A stretch of 64,000 bases of DNA from Escherichia phage vB_EcoM-Pr103Blw. A model generated the notes under the pieces. The model worked only from the letters and a program-made list of their open reading frames with translations. It had not been told where the DNA came from and ran no database searches. The position numbers were made by a program, and so were the translations under genes. The stretch lies in the sequence record MW481326.1; one strand, given 5' to 3'. Below, one piece after another: positions 10,490-48,533 of the stretch (its first letter is position 1; each line of letters begins with the position of its first letter).

Positions 10490-11344
10490 ATGTTTGAAAA
10501 GATTGATAGTGTTTACTATAAAACACTTGATGAAAGGACTGTAACACAGTTTAAAGATAAATTTATCTATACAAGTATCTTGAAAGCAATCACTGATGAA
10601 TTACAAACTCTAGAGGATGTTTGCTGGCAGATGCACACAGAGAGAAATATCAGGACGTCAGTAGGCCAACAACTTGATAACATTGGCTCACTGATTAAAG
10701 TTCCTAGACCTTTAGGTGCAGATGATGAAACATATAGGGCTATGCTTTATATCCAAATCTTCCTAAGACGCTCTGACACCACCCCAACATTCTTGCAAAA
10801 AGCAATTATGACGCTATATGGTGCAACTTTCTCTCAGATTTTTGAGCATATTACTCCTAAGACTGGTGGTATCGTTATCCGTATCAACACTAGAAAAAGC
10901 GTTCTAGATGCTGCATATACATTGTCAAAGATTTCTGCAACAACTACTGGCTCCGCTGTCATCTTAAGAGATGTTACTTTAAATGGAACTGCTTGGACTC
11001 CTGTAGAGGTTGCTGATTCATCACTTGCTATTGTTGATGATAAAGAGAACTGGTTTGTAACTGATGCTAACAGAGGTCTTGTCACAAATAACACTGGCGG
11101 CTCTCTGGAGTCCAACTTAGTAGGTAGTCTTGCAGATGCTGGTGTTATTGATGGTTACTTTAAGGTTGACAGAACAGCAAACCCACAGAGCGATGATTAT
11201 ATGACTGTAGATAGGTCTAATAATAGTGGCTATTTCATTGCTGGTAAAGAAGCTATTGCAGGTGGTGCATATGGAATCATGGCTGAGGTTGCACAAATTG
11301 TCAAAGGCAGAAAAGATAAATCACAACAAGAAGGAAATTCTTAA
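10490..11344 (+). CDS. putative baseplate/tail-fiber attachment protein
   Basis: 284 aa between J-like gene and tail fibers. Confidence 0.35.
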
Positions 11345-39019: not shown

Positions 39020-41164
39020 ATGAACAAAGTACAGATTATTAAAAAGAATGGCTCACTTGAAGAACCGGATATCAAAAAAGTTTTAGCAGCAGTAACTAAG
39101 TCAGCTAACAGGGTTGGGTATAAAGAACTCCCACCAGATGTTACCCAAGCTCTTGAGTCAGCATTTATGAGGCTTCTGGTGAAGTCCACTAAGCAGAATA
39201 ATTTGCTCATCTCGGTAAATGACATTCACAGTATTGTTGAGGGTGCTTTGGCAGAAGTCAATCACGAGATTTACGAGTCTTACTCAACATATAGAAATTA
39301 CCGTAAAGAGGTTGCTCAAAATTGGGATGAGCTTTACCAAAAGACTAGAGACACACTCTTCTTAGGTGACCGTGAAAATGCCAACTTTGACAGCAGTTTA
39401 ATTTCTACAAAAGGTTCAATTATTCGTGGTTATCTGACTAAAGAAATCTTTAAACAATACCATTTAACACCAGAGGAACTCGAAGCCATTGAAAAAGGGT
39501 TTATCTACATCCATGACTTAAGAGACCTAATCTTTGGTGGTATTAACTGTTGCCTGTTTGACATTGGTAAAGTACTGAAAGGTGGCTTTGAGATGTCTGG
39601 CATCGAATACTGTGAACCGAAGTCTGTACTGTCAGCCTTACAAGTTATCGGTGATGTAGTTCTTTCAGCAACTGCACAGCAATTTGGTGGATTTACTTTA
39701 GCAGAGATTGATAAGGTACTTGTACCGTATGCTAAGAAGTCTCTACGCTATCATGCTGAGAAAGCAGCATCTTATGGTATTCCTAAAGAACATTACCATA
39801 ATTATGTCATGGAGCAGTTACAGATTGAATTAACTCAAGGTTTTCAGTCACTTGAAATGAAACTGAACACTGTACCTTGCAGCCGTGGTGATTTCGCATT
39901 CACAACTTTGACATTCGGACTACTTGACTCAGATATGTCTAATGAAGACAACCGACTACAATACATGATTGCAAGCACTCTCCTAGATGTTCGTATGAAT
40001 GGACAAGGTAAGAGCAAGAAGCCTGTTGTATTCCCTAAACTTGTTTATATCTACGACCAGAAGAGACATGATGAAAATATCTGTCAAGGTCACCTGTACA
40101 GTAAAGCTATCGAGTGTTGCTCTAAAGCAATGTATCCAGATTTCTTAAGTGTATCTGGTCACGGTGCTGTAGCAGAGGCTTTTGAGCGTTCTGGTAAGGT
40201 AATTTCACCGATGGGTTGCAGAGCTTTCTTGTCTCCATATCTTAACGATGATGGGGGAGAGTTCTACGTTGGTCGTGCTAACATTGGTGCTGTGTCTTTG
40301 AACTTGCCAATGATTTACCAGTATTCTAAAGAGAATGGTTTAGATTTCTGGAAAGAGCTTGATAAGTACCTAGAGATGATTCGCAGCTTCCACAAGAAAC
40401 GCTACGAAATGATTGCTAATATGCCAGCAAGTTCTAACCCTCTTGCATTCACACAAGGTGGTCTGTACAAAGGTACTAAGAAATCTACTGACAAGGTTGG
40501 CTGGGATATCGTGAAGTCCTTCACAGCTTCTTTTGGGGTTACCGCACTGGATGAGTTATCTGTTCTTGCTGAAGGTAAACGACTTCATGAAGTTGGAAGC
40601 TATAGTTTTGCATACGATGTTCTGGCATACATCAACATGAAAACTGAAGAGTTTAAAAATGAAGATGGATTCTTATATGCTGTCTATGGTACTCCAGCAG
40701 AATCACTTTGTGGAACTCAGCTAAAACAGTTCAGAGATATGTTTGGCGTTATTAAAGGCGTTTCTGACAAGGAATACTTTACAAACAGTTTCCATATGAA
40801 TGTTGCAGCAGACATCTCACCATTTGAGAAGCAGGACTTAGAAGAGCCATTCTTCCATATCTGTAGAGGTGGCAGAATCCAGTATGTCAGAGTAGCTAAC
40901 CCAGAAAACTTAACAGCACTTAAAAGCTGTATTACAAGAGGCATGTTGAAAGGTTTTTATCAGGGACTTAACTTTGACTTAGCAATCTGTGAGCATTGTG
41001 GTAACAGACCAAAGGCTGATGTTGAAGAGTGTGAGGTTTGCCATTCACATGATATTTCTGTGATTAACAGGGTGTGTGGGTATCTTGGATGGACTAAGAT
41101 TAAAGGTGAATCCCGAATGAACGATGCAAAAATCGCTGAGATTCGTGATAGAGTCTCTATGTAA
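39020..41164 (+). CDS. nrdD: anaerobic ribonucleoside-triphosphate reductase
   Basis: 714 aa; C-terminal Cys cluster (CEHCGN...CEVCHS) and glycyl-radical motif RVCGYLG. Confidence 0.9.
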   Translation: MNKVQIIKKNGSLEEPDIKKVLAAVTKSANRVGYKELPPDVTQALESAFMRLLVKSTKQNNLLISVNDIHSIVEGALAEVNHEIYESYSTYRNYRKEVAQNWDELYQKTRDTLFLGDRENANFDSSLISTKGSIIRGYLTKEIFKQYHLTPEELEAIEKGFIYIHDLRDLIFGGINCCLFDIGKVLKGGFEMSGIEYCEPKSVLSALQVIGDVVLSATAQQFGGFTLAEIDKVLVPYAKKSLRYHAEKAASYGIPKEHYHNYVMEQLQIELTQGFQSLEMKLNTVPCSRGDFAFTTLTFGLLDSDMSNEDNRLQYMIASTLLDVRMNGQGKSKKPVVFPKLVYIYDQKRHDENICQGHLYSKAIECCSKAMYPDFLSVSGHGAVAEAFERSGKVISPMGCRAFLSPYLNDDGGEFYVGRANIGAVSLNLPMIYQYSKENGLDFWKELDKYLEMIRSFHKKRYEMIANMPASSNPLAFTQGGLYKGTKKSTDKVGWDIVKSFTASFGVTALDELSVLAEGKRLHEVGSYSFAYDVLAYINMKTEEFKNEDGFLYAVYGTPAESLCGTQLKQFRDMFGVIKGVSDKEYFTNSFHMNVAADISPFEKQDLEEPFFHICRGGRIQYVRVANPENLTALKSCITRGMLKGFYQGLNFDLAICEHCGNRPKADVEECEVCHSHDISVINRVCGYLGWTKIKGESRMNDAKIAEIRDRVSM

Positions 41165-42739: not shown

Positions 42740-43042
42740 ATGATTATCTCTTTTAATAGTGCTTTATTAGGCACTTATAAGGTTAAGACTGAACTCCTTG
42801 ATGAGTGGAAAAAGTATACAAACTCACTTTTTGGTAATGTTGGAATGGAAGCCTTAGCAGAGATTGAGAAGGCTGGAATATTCGAAGTTGTTGGTAAAGG
42901 CCACTTTACAATGTTCTACAGAACAAACCTAAACGTTGGTGACAGTATTGTTGGTGTCACTGAAGAAGAACTTAAAACATTTTGTGAAAAGATTGAGAGA
43001 GATACGAAATGGGAATCTGGAACAGTTTTAAATCAAAAATAA
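42740..43042 (+). CDS. hypothetical protein
   Basis: Track ORF 42584.. overlaps nrdG; ATG 42740 with GGTGAG SD is first start after nrdG stop. Confidence 0.35.
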   Translation: MIISFNSALLGTYKVKTELLDEWKKYTNSLFGNVGMEALAEIEKAGIFEVVGKGHFTMFYRTNLNVGDSIVGVTEEELKTFCEKIERDTKWESGTVLNQK

Positions 43043-43266
43043 AAGCAGCACTGGCATCACTAGGTATGCTCACTGGTGTTGACGTTACTCATCTCATGCA
43101 GAACTTCAAGATGGATGAGAAACTAGCTAATGAGATTATGGAAAGCATCTATGTAGGTCGTGGTAAAGGTGGTAAAAAACAAGCACATCGACCAACTGGT
43201 GCAGCAGCAATTAAACGTGCAGCTAAGAAAGCTCGTAACCGTAAACGTAACAAGAAGGCTAAATAA
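43009..43266 (+). CDS. small basic protein
   Basis: 85 aa, C-terminal KRAAKKARNRKRNKKAK. Confidence 0.4.
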   Translation: MGIWNSFKSKIKAALASLGMLTGVDVTHLMQNFKMDEKLANEIMESIYVGRGKGGKKQAHRPTGAAAIKRAAKKARNRKRNKKAK

Positions 43267-43268
43267 TC

Positions 43269-43589
43269 ATGAGCAAAGTTTATAACACTCGTAAATTACA
43301 GATTTTCGTACTGTGCCAGTTTATGGCTAAAGAGTATAACTACTACTACTGTGGCACAGGATTCATTAGTGATGATGACGGCTCATATCTACCATTCAAA
43401 GAGGCTGTAAAACTCTTCAATGAAGAGAAAAGCTCTAAGAAAGATATTGAAAAGGTTAAGCTAACCTACAGCAAGAAAGATAAGAAGATTATCTGCCTAG
43501 ATAACTTTGTAAAAGTTACTGGAGAAGCAAAAGAGTTTATGGATGAGAGTGAAATCTCGTTCACAAGTATCTTGAAAGTAGCTCAGTAA
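43269..43589 (+). CDS. hypothetical protein
   Basis: 106 aa. Confidence 0.45.
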   Translation: MSKVYNTRKLQIFVLCQFMAKEYNYYYCGTGFISDDDGSYLPFKEAVKLFNEEKSSKKDIEKVKLTYSKKDKKIICLDNFVKVTGEAKEFMDESEISFTSILKVAQ

Positions 43590-43601
43590 ACAGATACTAT
43601 A

Positions 43602-43630
43602 AGGGAACTGCAAAGGTTCCCTTTTTATTT
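43602..43630 (+). terminator. rho-independent terminator
   Basis: GGGAAC-tgcaaag-GTTCCC followed by TTTTTATTTT. Confidence 0.6.
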
Positions 43631-43640
43631 TGGAGACAAT

Positions 43641-44156
43641 ATGTATCTGTCAAATCTAAAACGTTCTGCTGCAATGTCAGTTCTAAGACTCAGCTTTGAG
43701 GAACGTCAAGAGTTCATCGACTCCCACCAATACGACCCTTCTAACTCAAACCACATGATTCTCTGGAATCGTGAGAGTACTCGTGAACGAGCACTATTCC
43801 GCTATTACCCACACTACACTATAGATAACCTGTATGAATGTTTTGTTGTGAAGAACACCATTACAGTGCTCAATAAGCTTTGTAGATACACAGGTAACCA
43901 GTCCTTCACATTAGGCCACCACAAGCCTGTTACAAAAGGTGGCGAACATCACTGTGCGAACTGGTTTATCCAAACTAAATCTGATAACCAGAAGCAAGGA
44001 GATAATCTTTTAAGCACCTCTAAGATGACCTATGAAGAGCAAGAGAGATATATCAAAAATAATATGCCAGATGTGCTTGACAACAACTATACAGATTTGG
44101 CAATATCTCTCCTGTTGAAGTTCGAGACAGTTTATAGGGCAACTTACAATGGCTAA
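43641..44156 (+). CDS. HNH endonuclease-like protein
   Basis: LGHHKPVTKGGEHHCANWFIQTKSDNQKQGDN resembles HNH core (HH..P..GG...N). Confidence 0.5.
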   Translation: MYLSNLKRSAAMSVLRLSFEERQEFIDSHQYDPSNSNHMILWNRESTRERALFRYYPHYTIDNLYECFVVKNTITVLNKLCRYTGNQSFTLGHHKPVTKGGEHHCANWFIQTKSDNQKQGDNLLSTSKMTYEEQERYIKNNMPDVLDNNYTDLAISLLLKFETVYRATYNG

Positions 44157-44427
44157 AGAGAAGTGGGAAATTTTACCATTAGTGAGTGAAGGTGGTAACG
44201 GTTGTGAGATGTACATGATACGAGGTCATGTTCCAGAACCAATTGCACTTGAGATGGTAAACAATTTTACAGATGGCTCTTACAAAGATTTAGGAGAGCC
44301 AACTATAAAGCATCAATGGGTCAAACCTGTACCAGACAGCACAGGTAACTGTAGTGTACTTTATCACGTTGTAGACCCTGCAAAATGCAAATCTGCAATG
44401 GCAGTAACAAACATAACTTTTGATTGA
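44149..44427 (+). CDS. hypothetical protein
   Basis: 92 aa. Confidence 0.4.
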   Translation: MAKEKWEILPLVSEGGNGCEMYMIRGHVPEPIALEMVNNFTDGSYKDLGEPTIKHQWVKPVPDSTGNCSVLYHVVDPAKCKSAMAVTNITFD

Positions 44428-44440
44428 GAGAGAGAAAACT

Positions 44441-44905
44441 ATGATTTTTTGCAATTCCCAGAAGCATGTAATAGAGATTCTATATAAGGAGTTTGGTACA
44501 GAGAACACCTTTGACTCAAATGAAGCAATTGATGTACTAAGAGAAAAAAGCCTCTTTATAAGAGGTCAATCAATTAACAATGCTCGTGGCTACCTAACAG
44601 TGCTAAGGCAATCCGGTGTACTGATAACTGTAGGCCAAATAAAAAGTAAGGGGAGACTAAGCATCAACCAGATTAACCGAGCTTTTATGGAGAAACACCC
44701 ACAACTATCACGAATGTTAGATGATGGACATGGGGAGGTAAAGAGCCTTCAAAAAACAACCTCGACCGATGTTAATTCAGTTGACATACAACCAGATGTT
44801 AGGTATTTTATTGAGGATGTGATGTTTAAAACAATGGATGAAGCAGTTGAACACTGTAAAAAACATCTGATTAAAGTTAAACGTGCAAAGATTGTTTGGG
44901 AATAA
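44441..44905 (+). CDS. tandem paralog A (unknown function)
   Basis: ATG 44441 after GAGAGAGAG SD; shares EILYKEFGT..FDSNEAI...PQLSR...KYFI.. and C-terminal K.K..IWE with paralog B. Confidence 0.5.
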   Translation: MIFCNSQKHVIEILYKEFGTENTFDSNEAIDVLREKSLFIRGQSINNARGYLTVLRQSGVLITVGQIKSKGRLSINQINRAFMEKHPQLSRMLDDGHGEVKSLQKTTSTDVNSVDIQPDVRYFIEDVMFKTMDEAVEHCKKHLIKVKRAKIVWE

Positions 44906-44938
44906 TACTTCAAAAACTTCTATTGAGAGAAAAAGAAC

Positions 44939-45391
44939 ATGTTAAGTTCATTTTACATAGCACTGACTGAGATTCTATATAAAGAATTTGGTACAGATAC
45001 CATCTTTGACTCTAATGAGGCTATAAAAGCTCTCAGAAGTGGAAGTGACTACCTAAGTAAAAGCCCTATAGCAAACATTCGGTATTACTTGACCACAATG
45101 CGTAAAATGGGGCTACTGATGGCTGTAAGTCAGGGAACAAAAGACTGTGCTTCTCTATACCTAAACCAACTAAATAAAATGATGATAGAGAGCGACCCAC
45201 AACTATCAAGACTACTTGATAGTGTTGACACAACTAATAGGAATACAAGAACATCAAAACCAAAAGGTGAGTTCCTCCCTGATGCAAAATACTTTATTGA
45301 TGAACTAATGTTTGATACCATAGAAGATGCAGTTGAGTATTGCAAAAAGAATATTATTAAGTTGAAAAGAAAGAAAATTATTTGGGAATAA
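44939..45391 (+). CDS. tandem paralog B (unknown function)
   Basis: 150 aa; same motifs and equivalent SD context as paralog A. Confidence 0.5.
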   Translation: MLSSFYIALTEILYKEFGTDTIFDSNEAIKALRSGSDYLSKSPIANIRYYLTTMRKMGLLMAVSQGTKDCASLYLNQLNKMMIESDPQLSRLLDSVDTTNRNTRTSKPKGEFLPDAKYFIDELMFDTIEDAVEYCKKNIIKLKRKKIIWE

Positions 45392-45426
45392 AACCAAGAA
45401 AACTACCATTATCGAGAGAGAGAACT

Positions 45427-46308
45427 ATGAAAACGTCTATCCGTGTTACAGTTCATTCACCAACTAAAGGAACTCATGAAGAAGAGTTTAACATCATCCA
45501 ATTCCCTTCTGGTGAGATTGGTGGACACTTTTCGCCAGAGTTTGTTGATTTTACTGCTTATGCAGCATCATCCATCAACAATGTGATTATGATTGTAAAA
45601 GGTTATGATAAAGACACATTGTTTGCTGTGGCACTTGCTAAAGAAGCAATTGATGATTTAGTACCTCATAAGTTTGCTATGAAGACCATTATCTTTTACT
45701 ATTTGCCAAATGCACGTTATGACCGTCACATGTTTAAAGGTGATGCAGCAGCTTTGAAAGTGTTTGCACAACAGGTTAATGCAATGGGTTTTGATGCAGT
45801 CTGTGCAGTTGACCCTCACAGCTATGTACCAGATAACCTGTTTAACTGCTTCCAGAGTATCCCCCAAAAGGAGATTGCAGTCCACTATGCGAATGACCCA
45901 CTGGTTGATTACTTAGTAGCCCCAGATGCAGGTGCTGCTAAGAAGATTGCAGAAACTGCTAAAGAGGTGGATAAACCATATATCACAATGTCTAAAGTAC
46001 GTAACCTTAAGACTGGTGAAATTACTGGTATGCGAATCCTTGATGATGTTGATTTGGCAGATAAAACCGTCATGATTCTGGATGATATTTGTGATGGGGG
46101 ACGAACCTTCATAGAAGCAGCTAAACATCTTCGTGAAGCAGGTGCAAAACGTGTGGAACTCTATGTAACACATGGTATCTTCTCTAAAGATGTTGAAAAC
46201 CTTCTTGACAATGGCATTGACCACATCTACACTACAAACTCTTTAGGGGAAGCTAAAGACCGTGGCTTAACACATTATGGCCAAGTTACTGTAGCAAACC
46301 TTGATTAA
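45427..46308 (+). CDS. PRPP-synthetase-family pyrophosphokinase (Prs-like; candidate ADP-ribose pyrophosphokinase of a two-gene NAD+ reconstitution cassette)
   Basis: ATG 45427 (GAGAGAGAG SD); Prs-like VDPH, APDAGAAKK and PRPP-loop ILDDICDGGRT motifs; directly upstream of NAMPT-like gene. Confidence 0.8.
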   Translation: MKTSIRVTVHSPTKGTHEEEFNIIQFPSGEIGGHFSPEFVDFTAYAASSINNVIMIVKGYDKDTLFAVALAKEAIDDLVPHKFAMKTIIFYYLPNARYDRHMFKGDAAALKVFAQQVNAMGFDAVCAVDPHSYVPDNLFNCFQSIPQKEIAVHYANDPLVDYLVAPDAGAAKKIAETAKEVDKPYITMSKVRNLKTGEITGMRILDDVDLADKTVMILDDICDGGRTFIEAAKHLREAGAKRVELYVTHGIFSKDVENLLDNGIDHIYTTNSLGEAKDRGLTHYGQVTVANLD

Positions 46309-46317
46309 AACTTTATA

Positions 46318-46338
46318 GGGGCTTAAAAGCCCCATTTT
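46318..46338 (+). terminator. short intercistronic hairpin (weak terminator or processing site)
   Basis: GGGGCTT-aa-AAGCCCC then ATTTT; weak T-run. Confidence 0.35.
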
Positions 46339-46353
46339 GAGAGAGATTAAAAG

Positions 46354-48135
46354 ATGACTAAATCACTTTATGCAGTACCAGCAGGTTTAAACGCAGATGC
46401 TTACAAATCTGGTCACATCTACCAGTATCCTAGTGCAACAGAGTACTTGATGTTCAACCTGACACCACGTAGCGACAAATGGTTTAACAGCCCCTTAGCA
46501 ATTGATGGTGTAGTTGCTTTTGGTATTCAGCGTTTTGTTAAAGATTACCTGATAGACCACTGGAACGCCACCTTCTTCGAACGTGACAAAAAAGAAGCAA
46601 TTGACGAAATCTTAGAAGTCATGAACGGTGTTCTGGGTAAAGATGCTATTGGTCGAGAGCATTGGGAAGCACTTCACGACTTAGGTTATCTGCCAGTTGA
46701 AGTATACGCTGTAGAAGAAGGCACAGTTGTCCCTATGCGTGTTCCGATGATTGTTTTCCAGAACACTGTTTCAGGTTTCCATTGGGTAGCGGGGTATCTG
46801 GAAGATGCTTTCTCTGCTGAGATTTGGAAGGCTTGTACCATTGCAACTATTGCATTGCACTACAAACGTATCTGTAAGAAGTGGGCTGACCTTACTTGTG
46901 ACAACGACTTACATTTACCTTATCAGTGCCATGACTTCGCTATGCGTGGTATGTCTGGCTTTACTGATGACGCATTTAACGCTGTAGGTCACTTAACCAG
47001 CTTTAAAGGAACTGATAGCTTCCCTGCTGTGTATACAGCTAAACGTATCTATGGACAGTCCTACCCAATATCTGATATTGGTAGCTCTGTACCAGCCACT
47101 GAACACTCTGTAATGTGTGCAAACATTGCTTGGGAAGGTGGTAATGAGTTGATTGAAGAAGAAAGACGCTTTAAAGGTGAGTTACAAACCTTCCGTCGTT
47201 TCTTAACAGAAACTTACCCAACTGGTATTGCAAGTGTTGTTTCAGACACTTATAATTTCTGGAGAACTGTGTCAGAAATCTTACCAGCACTTCGTAAAGA
47301 GATTATGGAACGTGACGGCAAACTGGTAATTCGTCCTGACTCTGGAGACCCTGTACATATTGTCACAGGATACAAAGCAATCCATTTAGAGTGTGCTAAA
47401 AAGGCTTATTACGAACACCTAAGTAAGCTGGAAGCCAGCGACACAATGTTGAATGCTGTTCTGAACATGAAGCTTGAAAACATCAATTATGGTATTGCTG
47501 GATGGCTACTGTCAGAAGGCTACGAAATGGTTGTTGACAGAGAAGACTTTGAAGTTGCTGATACAGTGCTGTTGAAAAACGCTTATATGGTTGGTTCTGC
47601 AAATGTTGTAACACGTCCTGTAGCAGAGATTGATGGGGCTATTAAGACCTTGTATAACATCTTTGGAGGAACTATCAACTCTAAAGGGTTTAAGGTACTG
47701 GATGAGCACATTGGCCTTATCTATGGTGACTCTATCACGTTGGAACGCGCAAACGAAATCCTTAAGCGTTTGTATGAAATGGGTTTTGCAAGCTCTAACG
47801 TAGTGTTTGGTGTAGGTTCTTACACTTACCAGTACATGACTCGTGACACCTTTGCATTTGCTGTCAAAGCAACTCTTGCAAGCATTGGTGGTAAAGAGAT
47901 TATGCTTGCAAAAGACCCTAAAACAGATAGTGGTGTTAAGAAGTCTGCTTTTGGTGGTGTAGCCCCTATGTGGGATGGTGAGAATCTGAAAGCTGTAGAT
48001 GGCTATGGATTCCAGAGCTTTGCAGATGCACTTGAACATCCAGCTTGTGCTTTACATTTAGTCTTTAGCGACTCTGAGCAGTTCGGCTACACAACTCTTG
48101 GTGATATTCGAAATAATATTGACAAGCATCTTTAA
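46354..48135 (+). CDS. nadV: nicotinamide phosphoribosyltransferase-family protein (NAMPT/NadV-like; candidate nicotinamide ADP-ribose transferase)
   Basis: 593 aa; DAYKSGH near N-terminus, HDFAMRG, SFKGTD, SVPATEHS, VVSDTYNFW and RPDSGDP match conserved NAMPT segments. Confidence 0.9.
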   Translation: MTKSLYAVPAGLNADAYKSGHIYQYPSATEYLMFNLTPRSDKWFNSPLAIDGVVAFGIQRFVKDYLIDHWNATFFERDKKEAIDEILEVMNGVLGKDAIGREHWEALHDLGYLPVEVYAVEEGTVVPMRVPMIVFQNTVSGFHWVAGYLEDAFSAEIWKACTIATIALHYKRICKKWADLTCDNDLHLPYQCHDFAMRGMSGFTDDAFNAVGHLTSFKGTDSFPAVYTAKRIYGQSYPISDIGSSVPATEHSVMCANIAWEGGNELIEEERRFKGELQTFRRFLTETYPTGIASVVSDTYNFWRTVSEILPALRKEIMERDGKLVIRPDSGDPVHIVTGYKAIHLECAKKAYYEHLSKLEASDTMLNAVLNMKLENINYGIAGWLLSEGYEMVVDREDFEVADTVLLKNAYMVGSANVVTRPVAEIDGAIKTLYNIFGGTINSKGFKVLDEHIGLIYGDSITLERANEILKRLYEMGFASSNVVFGVGSYTYQYMTRDTFAFAVKATLASIGGKEIMLAKDPKTDSGVKKSAFGGVAPMWDGENLKAVDGYGFQSFADALEHPACALHLVFSDSEQFGYTTLGDIRNNIDKHL

Positions 48136-48149
48136 AAGTATATGATAAG

Positions 48150-48172
48150 AGGCTCCTACGGGAGCCTTTTTA
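48150..48172 (+). terminator. rho-independent terminator
   Basis: AGGCTCC-tacg-GGAGCCT followed by TTTTTAATTT. Confidence 0.6.
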
Positions 48173-48188
48173 ATTTCTGGAGAATGCT

Positions 48189-48533
48189 ATGGACAACCTT
48201 TCCATATGGTTTAACAAGAAACCTGTACAACCGAAATACTTACAAGTTGCCTATACAGACATCCTTGAAGTTCTCGGTAAAGAAAAGTTTGAAAAGTTTT
48301 GTGAAGGTATCTACAATCACCACTGCCAATTTGCTACAAAAGAGGGTATGTTTGTCATAGAACAGTTCTTTGGCAGAGACCCAGATGACTATGAAGAGAT
48401 TAGCTTTGTAATAAAATACATGATAGAGTATATTGAAAATCGTGGATTCGAAGTTAATCCTGAATTTTATGAACATGAGGGTGTACCTTTAGCAAAAGGT
48501 TTCGATGGCATACTCGTTAACTGGACTTGGTGA
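48189..48533 (+). CDS. hypothetical protein
   Basis: 114 aa. Confidence 0.45.
   Translation: MDNLSIWFNKKPVQPKYLQVAYTDILEVLGKEKFEKFCEGIYNHHCQFATKEGMFVIEQFFGRDPDDYEEISFVIKYMIEYIENRGFEVNPEFYEHEGVPLAKGFDGILVNWTW

What the first reader, a model, noticed from the sequence alone, without database searches (positions are those of the whole stretch)
44441..45391. Tandem duplicated genes of unknown function directly upstream of the Prs-like/NAMPT-like pair
The two adjacent ORFs share an evident common origin (EILYKEFGT[ED]xxFDSNEAI, PQLSR[ML]LD, KYFI[ED][DE]xMF, C-terminal KRxKIxWE) and near-identical ribosome-binding contexts, but have diverged in the middle. They are the only genes between an HNH endonuclease and the candidate NAD+ cassette and may be expressed with it. 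Duplicated, diverging small proteins next to a counter-defence module are candidates for accessory or specificity factors.
Basis: seen in the sequence. Interest (0 to 1): 0.45.

Follow-up and report, generated by a model that had tools for sequence, protein, structure and literature searches.

The report
Variable winged-helix gene pair beside NARP1
The two small genes are genuine diverged duplicates encoding winged-helix proteins, but they form an optional, swappable cassette that most related phages lack, so they are very unlikely to be needed by the neighbouring NAD+-rebuilding enzymes.

Summary
ORF A (44441-44905, 154 aa) and ORF B (44939-45391, 150 aa) are paralogs (47% identity, E 3e-39). 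Both belong to phrog_29478, a family of unknown function that is very rare and restricted to Ounavirinae.

AlphaFold models give an N-terminal winged helix, a disordered linker with no identity between A and B, and a conserved C-terminal beta-beta-alpha module ending in invariant W-E.

The window is a Felixounavirus. Its Prs/NAMPT pair is NARP1 (Adps/Namat), 80% and 98% identical to Bas63 gp79/gp80.

The paralogs form a cassette array with 0, 2 or 4 copies, always inserted at the Adps ribosome-binding site and flanked by short direct repeats. Only 11 of 211 matching records in the annotated phage collection carry it. Bas63, where NARP1 was proven, has none. The one distant homolog lies 5.8 kb from Namat.

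dN/dS of 0.05-0.16 shows the genes are functional. Saturated dS between cassette types inside about 95%-identical flanks, and lower diversity within the cassette than in its flanks, point to a recombining mosaic module.

Best reading: an optional accessory cassette of probably nucleic-acid-binding proteins carried in a counter-defence-rich operon, not a NARP1 cofactor. The function is untested. Interest is modest.

The parts
43601..43623 (+). Terminator-like hairpin that closes the upstream unit, which makes it the 5' boundary of the operon holding the cassette
   Evidence: 9-bp stem followed by a T run. Mordin has an annotated terminator at the equivalent place.
43641..44156 (+). 171-aa gene (phrog_3500) with a weak HNH-like nuclease signature. 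It is the ortholog of Bas63 gp77 (96% identical).
   Evidence: Bas63 gp77 is reported as a counter to the Ec67 retron in 10.1101/2024.10.10.617714.
44149..44427 (+). Conserved 92-aa gene (phrog_4726, ortholog of Bas63 gp78). Its stop codon marks the left edge of the insertion site.
44419..44444 (+). Left junction J1: TTTGATT(GA)5AAACTATGA. It serves as the RBS of ORF A and as the left copy of the flanking direct repeat. The GA tract length is polymorphic (n = 3-9) among genomes.
   Evidence: (repeats D5, D7).
44441..44905 (+). ORF A, 154 aa, an A-type member of phrog_29478. Winged helix 44441-44725, disordered linker 44726-44791, C-terminal beta-beta-alpha module 44792-44902.
   Evidence: Identical to P0016, the protein of phage vB_EcoM-Pr103Blw.
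44911..44938 (+). Internal junction J2, a degenerate copy of J1 (71% over 28 nt, with the ATTGAGAGA core). It serves as the RBS of ORF B.
   Evidence: (repeat D5).
44939..45391 (+). ORF B, 150 aa, a B-type member of phrog_29478. Winged helix 44939-45220, linker 45221-45280, C-terminal module 45281-45388.
   Evidence: Identical to P0030, Pr103Blw_00124.
45404..45430 (+). Right junction J3: ...ATCGAGAGAGAGAACTATGA. It is the right copy of the flanking direct repeat (17 nt, 94% to J1) and the RBS of Adps.
   Evidence: (repeat D7). Recombination between J1 and J3 would reproduce the 0-copy junction seen in pEP20.
45427..46308 (+). Adps, the Prs-like first enzyme of NARP1. It is 80% identical to Bas63 gp79, and its N-terminal half is mosaic.
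46354..48135 (+). Namat, the NAMPT-like second enzyme of NARP1. It is 98% identical to Bas63 gp80.
48147..48170 (+). Terminator-like hairpin at the 3' boundary of the operon
   Evidence: Mordin has an annotated terminator after its Namat gene.

Best explanation
A and B are functional genes for two diverged members of a small, Ounavirinae-restricted protein family (phrog_29478). Each protein has an N-terminal winged-helix domain, a disordered hypervariable linker, and a conserved C-terminal beta-beta-alpha module ending in invariant Trp-Glu.

The genes are units of an optional cassette array. The array sits exactly between the stop codon of the gp78-like gene and the start codon of Adps, and each unit carries its own copy of the GA-rich ribosome-binding junction. 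Related phages hold 0, 2 or 4 units in different combinations: A+B, C+short, or C+short+A'+short'.

Short direct repeats at both ends allow gain, loss and exchange by recombination. The cassette therefore behaves as a mosaic module moving among otherwise about 95%-identical genomes.

The cassette is read through with the counter-defence operon (gp77-like nuclease, gp78, Adps, Namat), but NARP1 chemistry does not need it.

Inferred and not shown: the winged helix binds nucleic acid or a partner protein with paralog-specific specificity, and the conserved C-terminal module provides dimerisation or docking to a common partner. On this reading the array is a host-dependent accessory (counter-defence or takeover) function rather than a housekeeping one.
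For: - Paralogy: E 3e-39.
- Family membership and rarity: phrog_29478; 15 clusters among 5.8 billion proteins; 4 representatives among 1.84 billion; none in IMG/VR or GTDB genomes and 2 in JGI metagenomes.
- The C-terminal module is the best conserved part (60% against 45% and 14%) and the only part kept in the distant member P0011.
- Copy number and composition at one fixed site.
- Flanking repeats and the exact 0-copy junction.
- Purifying selection: dN/dS is 0.05-0.16 between orthologs. dS is 2.4 for A against its SP3 counterpart, while the flanks have dS 0.15-0.26.
- Lower diversity within cassette types than in the flanks: the cassette is more similar than all three flanks in 64 of 66 genome pairs.
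- Operon bounds.
- Dispensable for NARP1: Bas63 has no copy yet its gp79/80 counter SIR2-HerA.
- Counter-defence neighbours: gp77 against the Ec67 retron and rIIA/B against QatABCD in Bas63.
Against: - The winged-helix domain of B has no net charge (pI 6.2).
- The C-terminal module is modelled at only pLDDT 55-73 and has no structural match.
- The diversity comparison is partly biased, because most two-copy loci were retrieved by exact identity to one B allele. With a divergent allele (L023) the contrast shrinks to 97/94% against 92-93%.
- The direction of change (insertion or deletion) is not resolved.
- The counter-defence role rests on neighbourhood only.
Confidence: 0.6

Rival explanations
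1. NARP1 accessory or specificity factors. A and B would modulate Adps/Namat, for example by widening the substrate range or sensing NAD+ breakdown products, as the Macro phosphatase Adpp and the glycosidase RyDEP do in other NARP1 operons.
For: In every Felixounavirus or Mooglevirus locus that has the genes, they sit immediately upstream of Adps, with no terminator in between. Extra genes inside NARP1 operons are known to extend the pathway.
Against: The genes are absent from about 95% of records with the same operon. They are also absent from Bas63, where the two enzymes suffice. The distant member P0011 is not adjacent to NARP1. There is no Macro, RyR, Nudix or other nucleotide-handling domain, only a winged-helix fold. 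All positive loci are close syntenic relatives, so adjacency reflects one insertion hotspot rather than repeated independent association.
Confidence: 0.08
2. Operon regulators analogous to Aca proteins of anti-CRISPR loci. The winged-helix proteins would bind an operator and tune transcription of the counter-defence operon.
For: The proteins have a helix-turn-helix type fold and lie inside a terminator-bounded operon that carries proven counter-defence genes.
Against: The same operon, promoter region and terminators exist without the cassette in most relatives. Two to four diverged paralogs are not expected for a single autoregulator. No operator-like palindrome was found near the operon start or within the cassette.
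Confidence: 0.12
3. A selfish mobile cassette with no benefit to the phage, spreading by recombination or gene conversion at a hotspot, possibly helped by nearby nucleases.
Against: The cassette encodes no nuclease, and the C-terminal beta-beta-alpha module lacks conserved catalytic His/Asn residues. The gp77-like nuclease is present in all genomes, so it cannot drive homing into cassette-free ones. Strong purifying selection on every paralog type argues for a function that is selected.
Confidence: 0.12
4. Non-functional duplicated remnants or annotation artefacts.
For: There are no Pfam, NCBIfam or PADLOC matches.
Against: The reading frames are intact in dozens of independent assemblies. dN/dS is 0.05-0.16. 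The N-terminal fold is confidently predicted. The start context and length are conserved.
Confidence: 0.02

Closest known systems
phrog_29478 (PHROGs family, unknown function; e.g. Mordin_7/Mordin_8, SP3_48-51, Pr103Blw_00124)
   Same: Both ORFs match the profile end to end, with E 6e-70 and 4e-59. They occupy the same genomic site as the Mordin and SP3 members.
   Different: Nothing is known about the family. This work adds the domain architecture, the 0/2/4 copy-number behaviour, the subtypes (A, B, C, short) and a distant member (P0011) that keeps only the C-terminal module.
Winged-helix DNA-binding regulators (MarR/SarA/PadR/ArsR/Fur type)
   Different: No sequence-profile match reaches a Pfam cut-off, and neither weak sub-threshold hit is to a winged-helix family. 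There is no MarR-type dimerisation helix pair. Instead there is a disordered linker plus a unique beta-beta-alpha tail. Protein-binding winged helices score equally well. DNA binding is untested.
NARP1 operon add-ons: Adpp (Macro-domain ADPR-1P phosphatase) and RyDEP (RyR-domain cADPR glycosidase)
   Same: They are extra genes embedded in or next to the Adps/Namat pair in a subset of phages.
   Different: Those are enzymes with nucleotide-binding folds and a demonstrated biochemical link to ADPR. A and B have neither such a domain nor any demonstrated link, and they occur in well under 2% of known NARP1 loci: 15 records against 859 NARP1 pathways counted in 10.64898/2026.01.28.702374.
Aca (anti-CRISPR-associated) HTH regulators
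   Same: They are small helix-turn-helix proteins encoded inside phage counter-defence operons.
   Different: Aca genes are the conserved marker of their loci and act on an operator in the acr promoter. Here the genes are the variable element, they come in multiple copies, and no operator was found.
Morons and hyperplastic-region accessory cassettes of lytic phages
   Same: The cassette is optional, varies between otherwise collinear genomes, is inserted at an intergenic joint with short flanking repeats, and shows mosaic ancestry.
   Different: It has no promoter or terminator of its own. The units reuse and duplicate the resident RBS joint and are read through within an existing operon.

Membership tests
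phrog_29478 | Full-length match to the family profile | tested here: met
   A: E 6.1e-70, residues 1-154 on profile 1-150. B: E 3.6e-59, residues 1-150 on profile 2-150.
Tandem paralogs (common origin of A and B) | Significant pairwise similarity over the full length, same strand, adjacent | tested here: met
   47% identity over 146 aa, E 3e-39. DNA repeat period is 495-499 nt.
Winged-helix superfamily | H1-S1-H2-H3-S2-wing-S3 topology with structural similarity to solved winged-helix domains | tested here: met
   [not shown]
Winged-helix superfamily | Sequence-profile membership in a curated HTH family (MarR, PadR, ArsR, etc.) | tested here: not met
   No Pfam or NCBIfam winged-helix or HTH family matched, even at E up to 1. 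PDB sequence profiles gave only noise at E 0.25.
Winged-helix superfamily | Sequence-specific nucleic-acid binding | not testable with these tools
   Indirect evidence only: a conserved helix-3 surface in the long paralogs; the domain of A is basic (pI 9.3) but that of B is neutral (pI 6.2).
NARP1 accessory genes (Adpp / RyDEP type) | Macro (PF01661/PF14519/PF20016) or RyR domain | tested here: not met
   No such Pfam hit for A or B.
NARP1 accessory genes (Adpp / RyDEP type) | Recurrent association with Adps/Namat across unrelated phages | tested here: not met
   The family occurs only in Ounavirinae. 15 of 50,697 phage records carry it. 11 of 211 records with this junction region are split by an insert. 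It is absent from Bas63. P0011 lies 5.8 kb away from Namat.
NARP1 (Adps + Namat) for the neighbouring pair | Orthology to the experimentally characterised Bas63 gp79/gp80 | tested here: met
   80% identity (293 aa) and 98% identity (593 aa), same order and spacing. The function is taken from 10.1101/2024.02.11.579819.
Aca-like operon autoregulator | Conserved presence with the operon and an operator (inverted repeat) in its promoter | tested here: not met
   The operon exists without the genes in most relatives. No convincing palindrome lies near 43540-43660 or at the junctions.
His-Me finger / HNH nuclease (for the C-terminal beta-beta-alpha module) | Conserved catalytic His at the end of strand 1 and a metal-binding Asn/His on the helix | tested here: not met
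   The invariant residues are F123, F129, A135, C139, K140, I144, K147, W153 and E154. H138 alternates with Tyr, and there is no conserved His or Asn in the hairpin.
Known anti-phage defence or candidate systems (PADLOC) | Profile match | tested here: not met
   No hit at E up to 1 for A, B, P0010 or P0011.

The most novel reading that the evidence does not exclude
The array would be a previously unrecognised family of phage counter-defence (or host-takeover) proteins built on a 'variable head, constant tail' plan. A conserved C-terminal beta-beta-alpha/W-E module would dock onto one conserved partner. Diverged winged-helix heads, kept as 2-4 anciently split alleles per genome and exchanged between phages as a cassette, would provide different target specificities. 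This would explain why the cassette travels inside an operon whose other genes counter a retron and NAD+-depleting systems.
Probability: 0.2. Interest if true: 0.6.

Novelty: new member of a known kind. Interest (0 to 1): 0.3.

Why it matters
The result keeps the NARP1 locus annotation clean. The two enzymes are the functional unit, and these neighbours are passengers at an insertion hotspot.

If the cassette does confer a host-dependent advantage, it offers a compact, naturally portable pair of candidate counter-defence genes. There is a ready experimental contrast between 0-, 2- and 4-copy phages that are otherwise about 95% identical, including the tractable Bas63.

The junction anatomy is also a small, clear example of how lytic phages add and drop genes inside an operon without disturbing its expression signals. 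A GA-tract RBS is duplicated at each unit, and recombination between the copies restores the exact cassette-free joint.

Tried and rejected
- Pfam, NCBIfam and PADLOC scans of A, B and the distant members gave nothing meaningful. The hits were Cas9_RuvC at E 0.012, NDUS4 at E 0.12 and SgcJ/EcaC at E 5e-4, all far below the cut-offs.
- A PDB sequence-profile search matched only the NCK SH2 C-terminal strand-helix at E 0.25, which I treat as chance.
- The whole-library HMM search found only 4 representatives, so it offered no bridge to a characterised family.
- IMG/VR (two scans) and GTDB genomes held no relative. JGI metagenomes held 2.
- The afdb50 fold library was unavailable.
- A nuclease reading of the beta-beta-alpha module was rejected for lack of catalytic residues.
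- 'Fast-evolving arms-race genes' was rejected as the explanation for 80% identity inside 96-98%-identical flanks. dN/dS is 0.05 and dS is saturated, so the alleles are old rather than rapidly changing.
- The operator and palindrome search around the operon start and the cassette found nothing convincing.
- Rfam had no credible RNA in 43000-48500.
- Opposite-strand ORFs over the region are short (72 aa or less) and unsupported.
- An HMM search of the six-frame window found no further family member in the 64 kb.
- The alternative TTG start of A (44420) was rejected, because all homologs begin MIFC at the ATG behind the GA-rich RBS.

Full report
**What is there**

The region holds two adjacent + strand ORFs at exactly the reported coordinates. 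ORF A runs 44441-44905 (154 aa from the ATG). ORF B runs 44939-45391 (150 aa). BLASTP of A against B gives 47% identity over 146 residues, E 3e-39. Both match PHROGs family phrog_29478, of unknown function, from end to end.

In the fourth, KYFI[ED][DE]xMF, A has Arg in place of the Lys. Divergence is indeed concentrated in the middle: 46% identity in residues 1-95, 0 of 17 in the linker, and 59% in the last 37 residues.

Two details in the finding are wrong.
- A conserved 92-aa gene (44149-44427, phrog_4726) lies between the 'HNH' gene and ORF A.
- The shared ribosome-binding context (ATTGAGAGA, then 7-9 nt, then ATG) is not peculiar to A and B. It also precedes Adps, Namat and the ORF at 43009.

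Opposite-strand ORFs are short and unsupported. No Rfam family matches credibly.

**Where the window comes from and what the neighbours are**

The DNA is 93-97% identical to many Felixounavirus (Felix O1-like) genomes. Proteins A and B are identical to those of Escherichia phage vB_EcoM-Pr103Blw.

The 'Prs-like/NAMPT-like pair' is NARP1. The two proteins are 80% and 98% identical to Bas63 gp79 (Adps) and gp80 (Namat). Those Bas63 genes are the ones in which the ADPR to ADPR-PP to NAD+ pathway and its counter-defence role were demonstrated (10.1101/2024.02.11.579819; 10.1101/2024.10.10.617714).

The gene at 43641-44156 is 96% identical to Bas63 gp77, which is reported there as a counter to the Ec67 retron.

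Terminator-like hairpins at 43601-43623 and 48147-48170 bracket one tightly packed unit: gp77-like, gp78-like, A, B, Adps, Namat. Phage Mordin has annotated terminators at the same two places. Co-transcription with NARP1 is therefore plausible from the anatomy, but it is not shown.

**What the proteins look like**

No Pfam, NCBIfam or PADLOC family matches. AlphaFold2 models of A (pLDDT about 90 for residues 1-95) and of B show the same three parts:
- an N-terminal winged helix;
- a disordered linker of about 20-25 residues;
- a C-terminal strand-strand-helix module, modelled at lower confidence (pLDDT 55-73).

The C-terminal module has no structural or sequence match. It lacks the conserved His/Asn needed for a His-Me nuclease. 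Even so, it is the best conserved part of the family. Its invariant residues are F123, F129, A135, C139, K140, I144, K147, W153 and E154. It is also the only part retained in the most distant member, P0011.

**How rare and how variable the family is**

- Word-indexed searches of 5.8 billion proteins found 15 clusters at 90% identity.
- A full HMM scan of 1.84 billion representatives found 4.
- IMG/VR and GTDB genomes held none, and JGI metagenomes held 2.
- Every member with context lies in an Ounavirinae-type phage.

At the same site, between the stop codon of the 92-aa gene and the ATG of Adps, relatives carry different states:
- A+B in the window and in dozens of metagenomic contigs, with one B allele indexed in 242 sample blocks;
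- the homologous Mordin_8+Mordin_7 pair in Mooglevirus;
- a C-type plus a short 131-aa type;
- four copies in the order C, short, A', short' in SP3 and ESCO50.

In the annotated phage collection only 15 of 50,697 records hold any member. Of the 211 records that carry the junction region, at least 131 have the 92-aa gene running uninterrupted into Adps, and only 11 are split by an insert. The window has no further member elsewhere in its 64 kb. P0011 sits 5.8 kb downstream of Namat, beyond rIIA, rIIB, an SLT-domain gene and a PNKP-like gene.

**How the cassette comes and goes**

Each unit begins with a copy of the joint that ends the 92-aa gene, AACTT(T/C)T..ATTGAGAGA...ATG (repeat D5). The whole cassette is bracketed by a 17-nt direct repeat: GAGAGAGAAAACTATGA at 44428 and GAGAGAGAGAACTATGA at 45414 (repeat D7).

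In Mordin the bracket is a perfect repeat of about 40 bp that includes the last codons of the upstream gene. Recombination between the brackets yields exactly the joint seen in cassette-free phages, TTGATTGAGAGAGAAAACTATGAAAAC. The GA tract itself is length-polymorphic, with n = 3-9. These facts fit gain, loss and unit duplication by short-homology recombination. The direction of change is not resolved.

**Evolutionary signals**

- Between the window and SP3, the flanking genes are 96-98% identical in protein with dS 0.15-0.26. A and its SP3 counterpart are 80% identical with dS 2.4 (saturated) and dN/dS 0.05.
- The difference therefore reflects old alleles under purifying selection placed into young backgrounds. 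It is not rapid diversification.
- dN/dS is 0.05-0.16 for the other ortholog pairs where dS could be estimated, so the genes are functional.
- Among twelve two-copy genomes the cassette is more similar (mean 99.2% for A and 98.4% for B) than the flanks (94-96%). It exceeds all three flanks in 64 of 66 pairs.
- This suggests recent spread of the cassette by recombination. The caveat is that most of those loci were retrieved through exact identity to one B allele. With the most divergent allele the contrast is small.
- The neighbourhood is recombinationally active in general. The 5' half of Adps is mosaic between the window and Bas63. Some relatives carry an HNH homing endonuclease gene between Adps and Namat.

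**Interpretation**

Shown here:
- the paralogy and the domain plan;
- the restricted distribution;
- optional presence at one hotspot;
- purifying selection and mosaic ancestry;
- the operon context;
- absence from Bas63, in which NARP1 is functional.

Inferred: the winged helix binds nucleic acid or a partner with paralog-specific specificity, and the conserved tail mediates oligomerisation or docking. On this reading the array provides a host-dependent accessory function, with counter-defence the most attractive option. The operon's other members counter a retron and NAD+ depletion, and the nearby rIIA/B counter QatABCD in Bas63.

Genuine NARP1 add-ons do exist, but they are nucleotide-handling enzymes: Adpp (Macro) and RyDEP (RyR). 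An Aca-like operon regulator is unlikely, because the operon is the same without the genes and no operator was found. A purely selfish cassette cannot be excluded. However, it has no nuclease of its own and is under strong purifying selection.

**Verdict**

This is a real, correctly located pair of diverged duplicates. It belongs to an already catalogued but uncharacterised phage ORFan family with a generic winged-helix fold, and it forms an optional mosaic cassette at the Adps start. It is an ordinary kind of phage accessory locus with a tidy anatomy. It is of moderate interest mainly as a candidate for counter-defence screening, and it is not part of the NAD+ reconstitution machinery.

Noticed in passing
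window 44426-44435, and the same joint in L009-L016, L023-L027: The (GA)n tract that forms the RBS region upstream of ORF A varies from n = 3 to 9 among otherwise near-identical cassettes. It is a slippage-prone dinucleotide repeat sitting exactly at the recombination joint. Its effect on translation of A is unknown.
   Followed up: partly
window 43641-44156: This 171-aa protein is 96% identical to Bas63 gp77, reported to counter the Ec67 retron and described there as GIY-YIG. Here the only nuclease-type profile hits are weak HNH ones: phrog_2214 at E 7e-5, phrog_9645, and the IscB HNH region at E 0.05. The motif GHHKPVTKGGEHHCANW...N..K looks HNH-like. Its N-terminus gives a spurious multi-repeat match to staphylococcal protein A domains.
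   Followed up: partly
window 45427-45950, compared with L008 14747-15270: The 5' half of Adps is only 57-87% identical in nucleotides between the window and Bas63, while the 3' half and Namat are 90-98% identical. Against pEP20 the whole gene is 99% identical in protein. Adps therefore exists as two N-terminal allelic forms within Felixounavirus, with a breakpoint inside the gene.
   Followed up: partly
[not shown]
   Followed up: no
L008 8631-11517 (Bas63), compared with window 39020-41164: In Bas63 the anaerobic ribonucleotide reductase gene nrdD is annotated as joined from two pieces around a putative homing endonuclease gene (bas63_0068). In the window nrdD is a single uninterrupted 714-aa ORF.
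   Followed up: no
L004 8001-8378 and its surroundings (Logan contig SRR31815898_117897): A divergent Ounavirinae-like phage encodes the only remote family member, P0011 (125 aa, with only the C-terminal module conserved). It lies in a run of small genes that also includes a weak WYL_2 hit and a 246-aa Macro-domain protein at 10505-11245. The Macro protein could be an Adpp-like ADPR-1P phosphatase placed away from NARP1.
   Followed up: no
L019-L022 (Mooglevirus-like contigs): The array can also consist of one 151-aa C-type gene plus one 131-aa short-type gene. The 4-copy arrays therefore look like two such long+short pairs in tandem, which suggests the duplicating unit may be a gene pair rather than a single gene.
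   Followed up: partly
window 45382-45426: The mechanical ORF for Adps starts at a TTG (45382) that overlaps the end of ORF B. All homologs begin MKT... at the ATG at 45427, behind the GA-rich RBS, so the 293-aa form is the likely product.
   Followed up: yes
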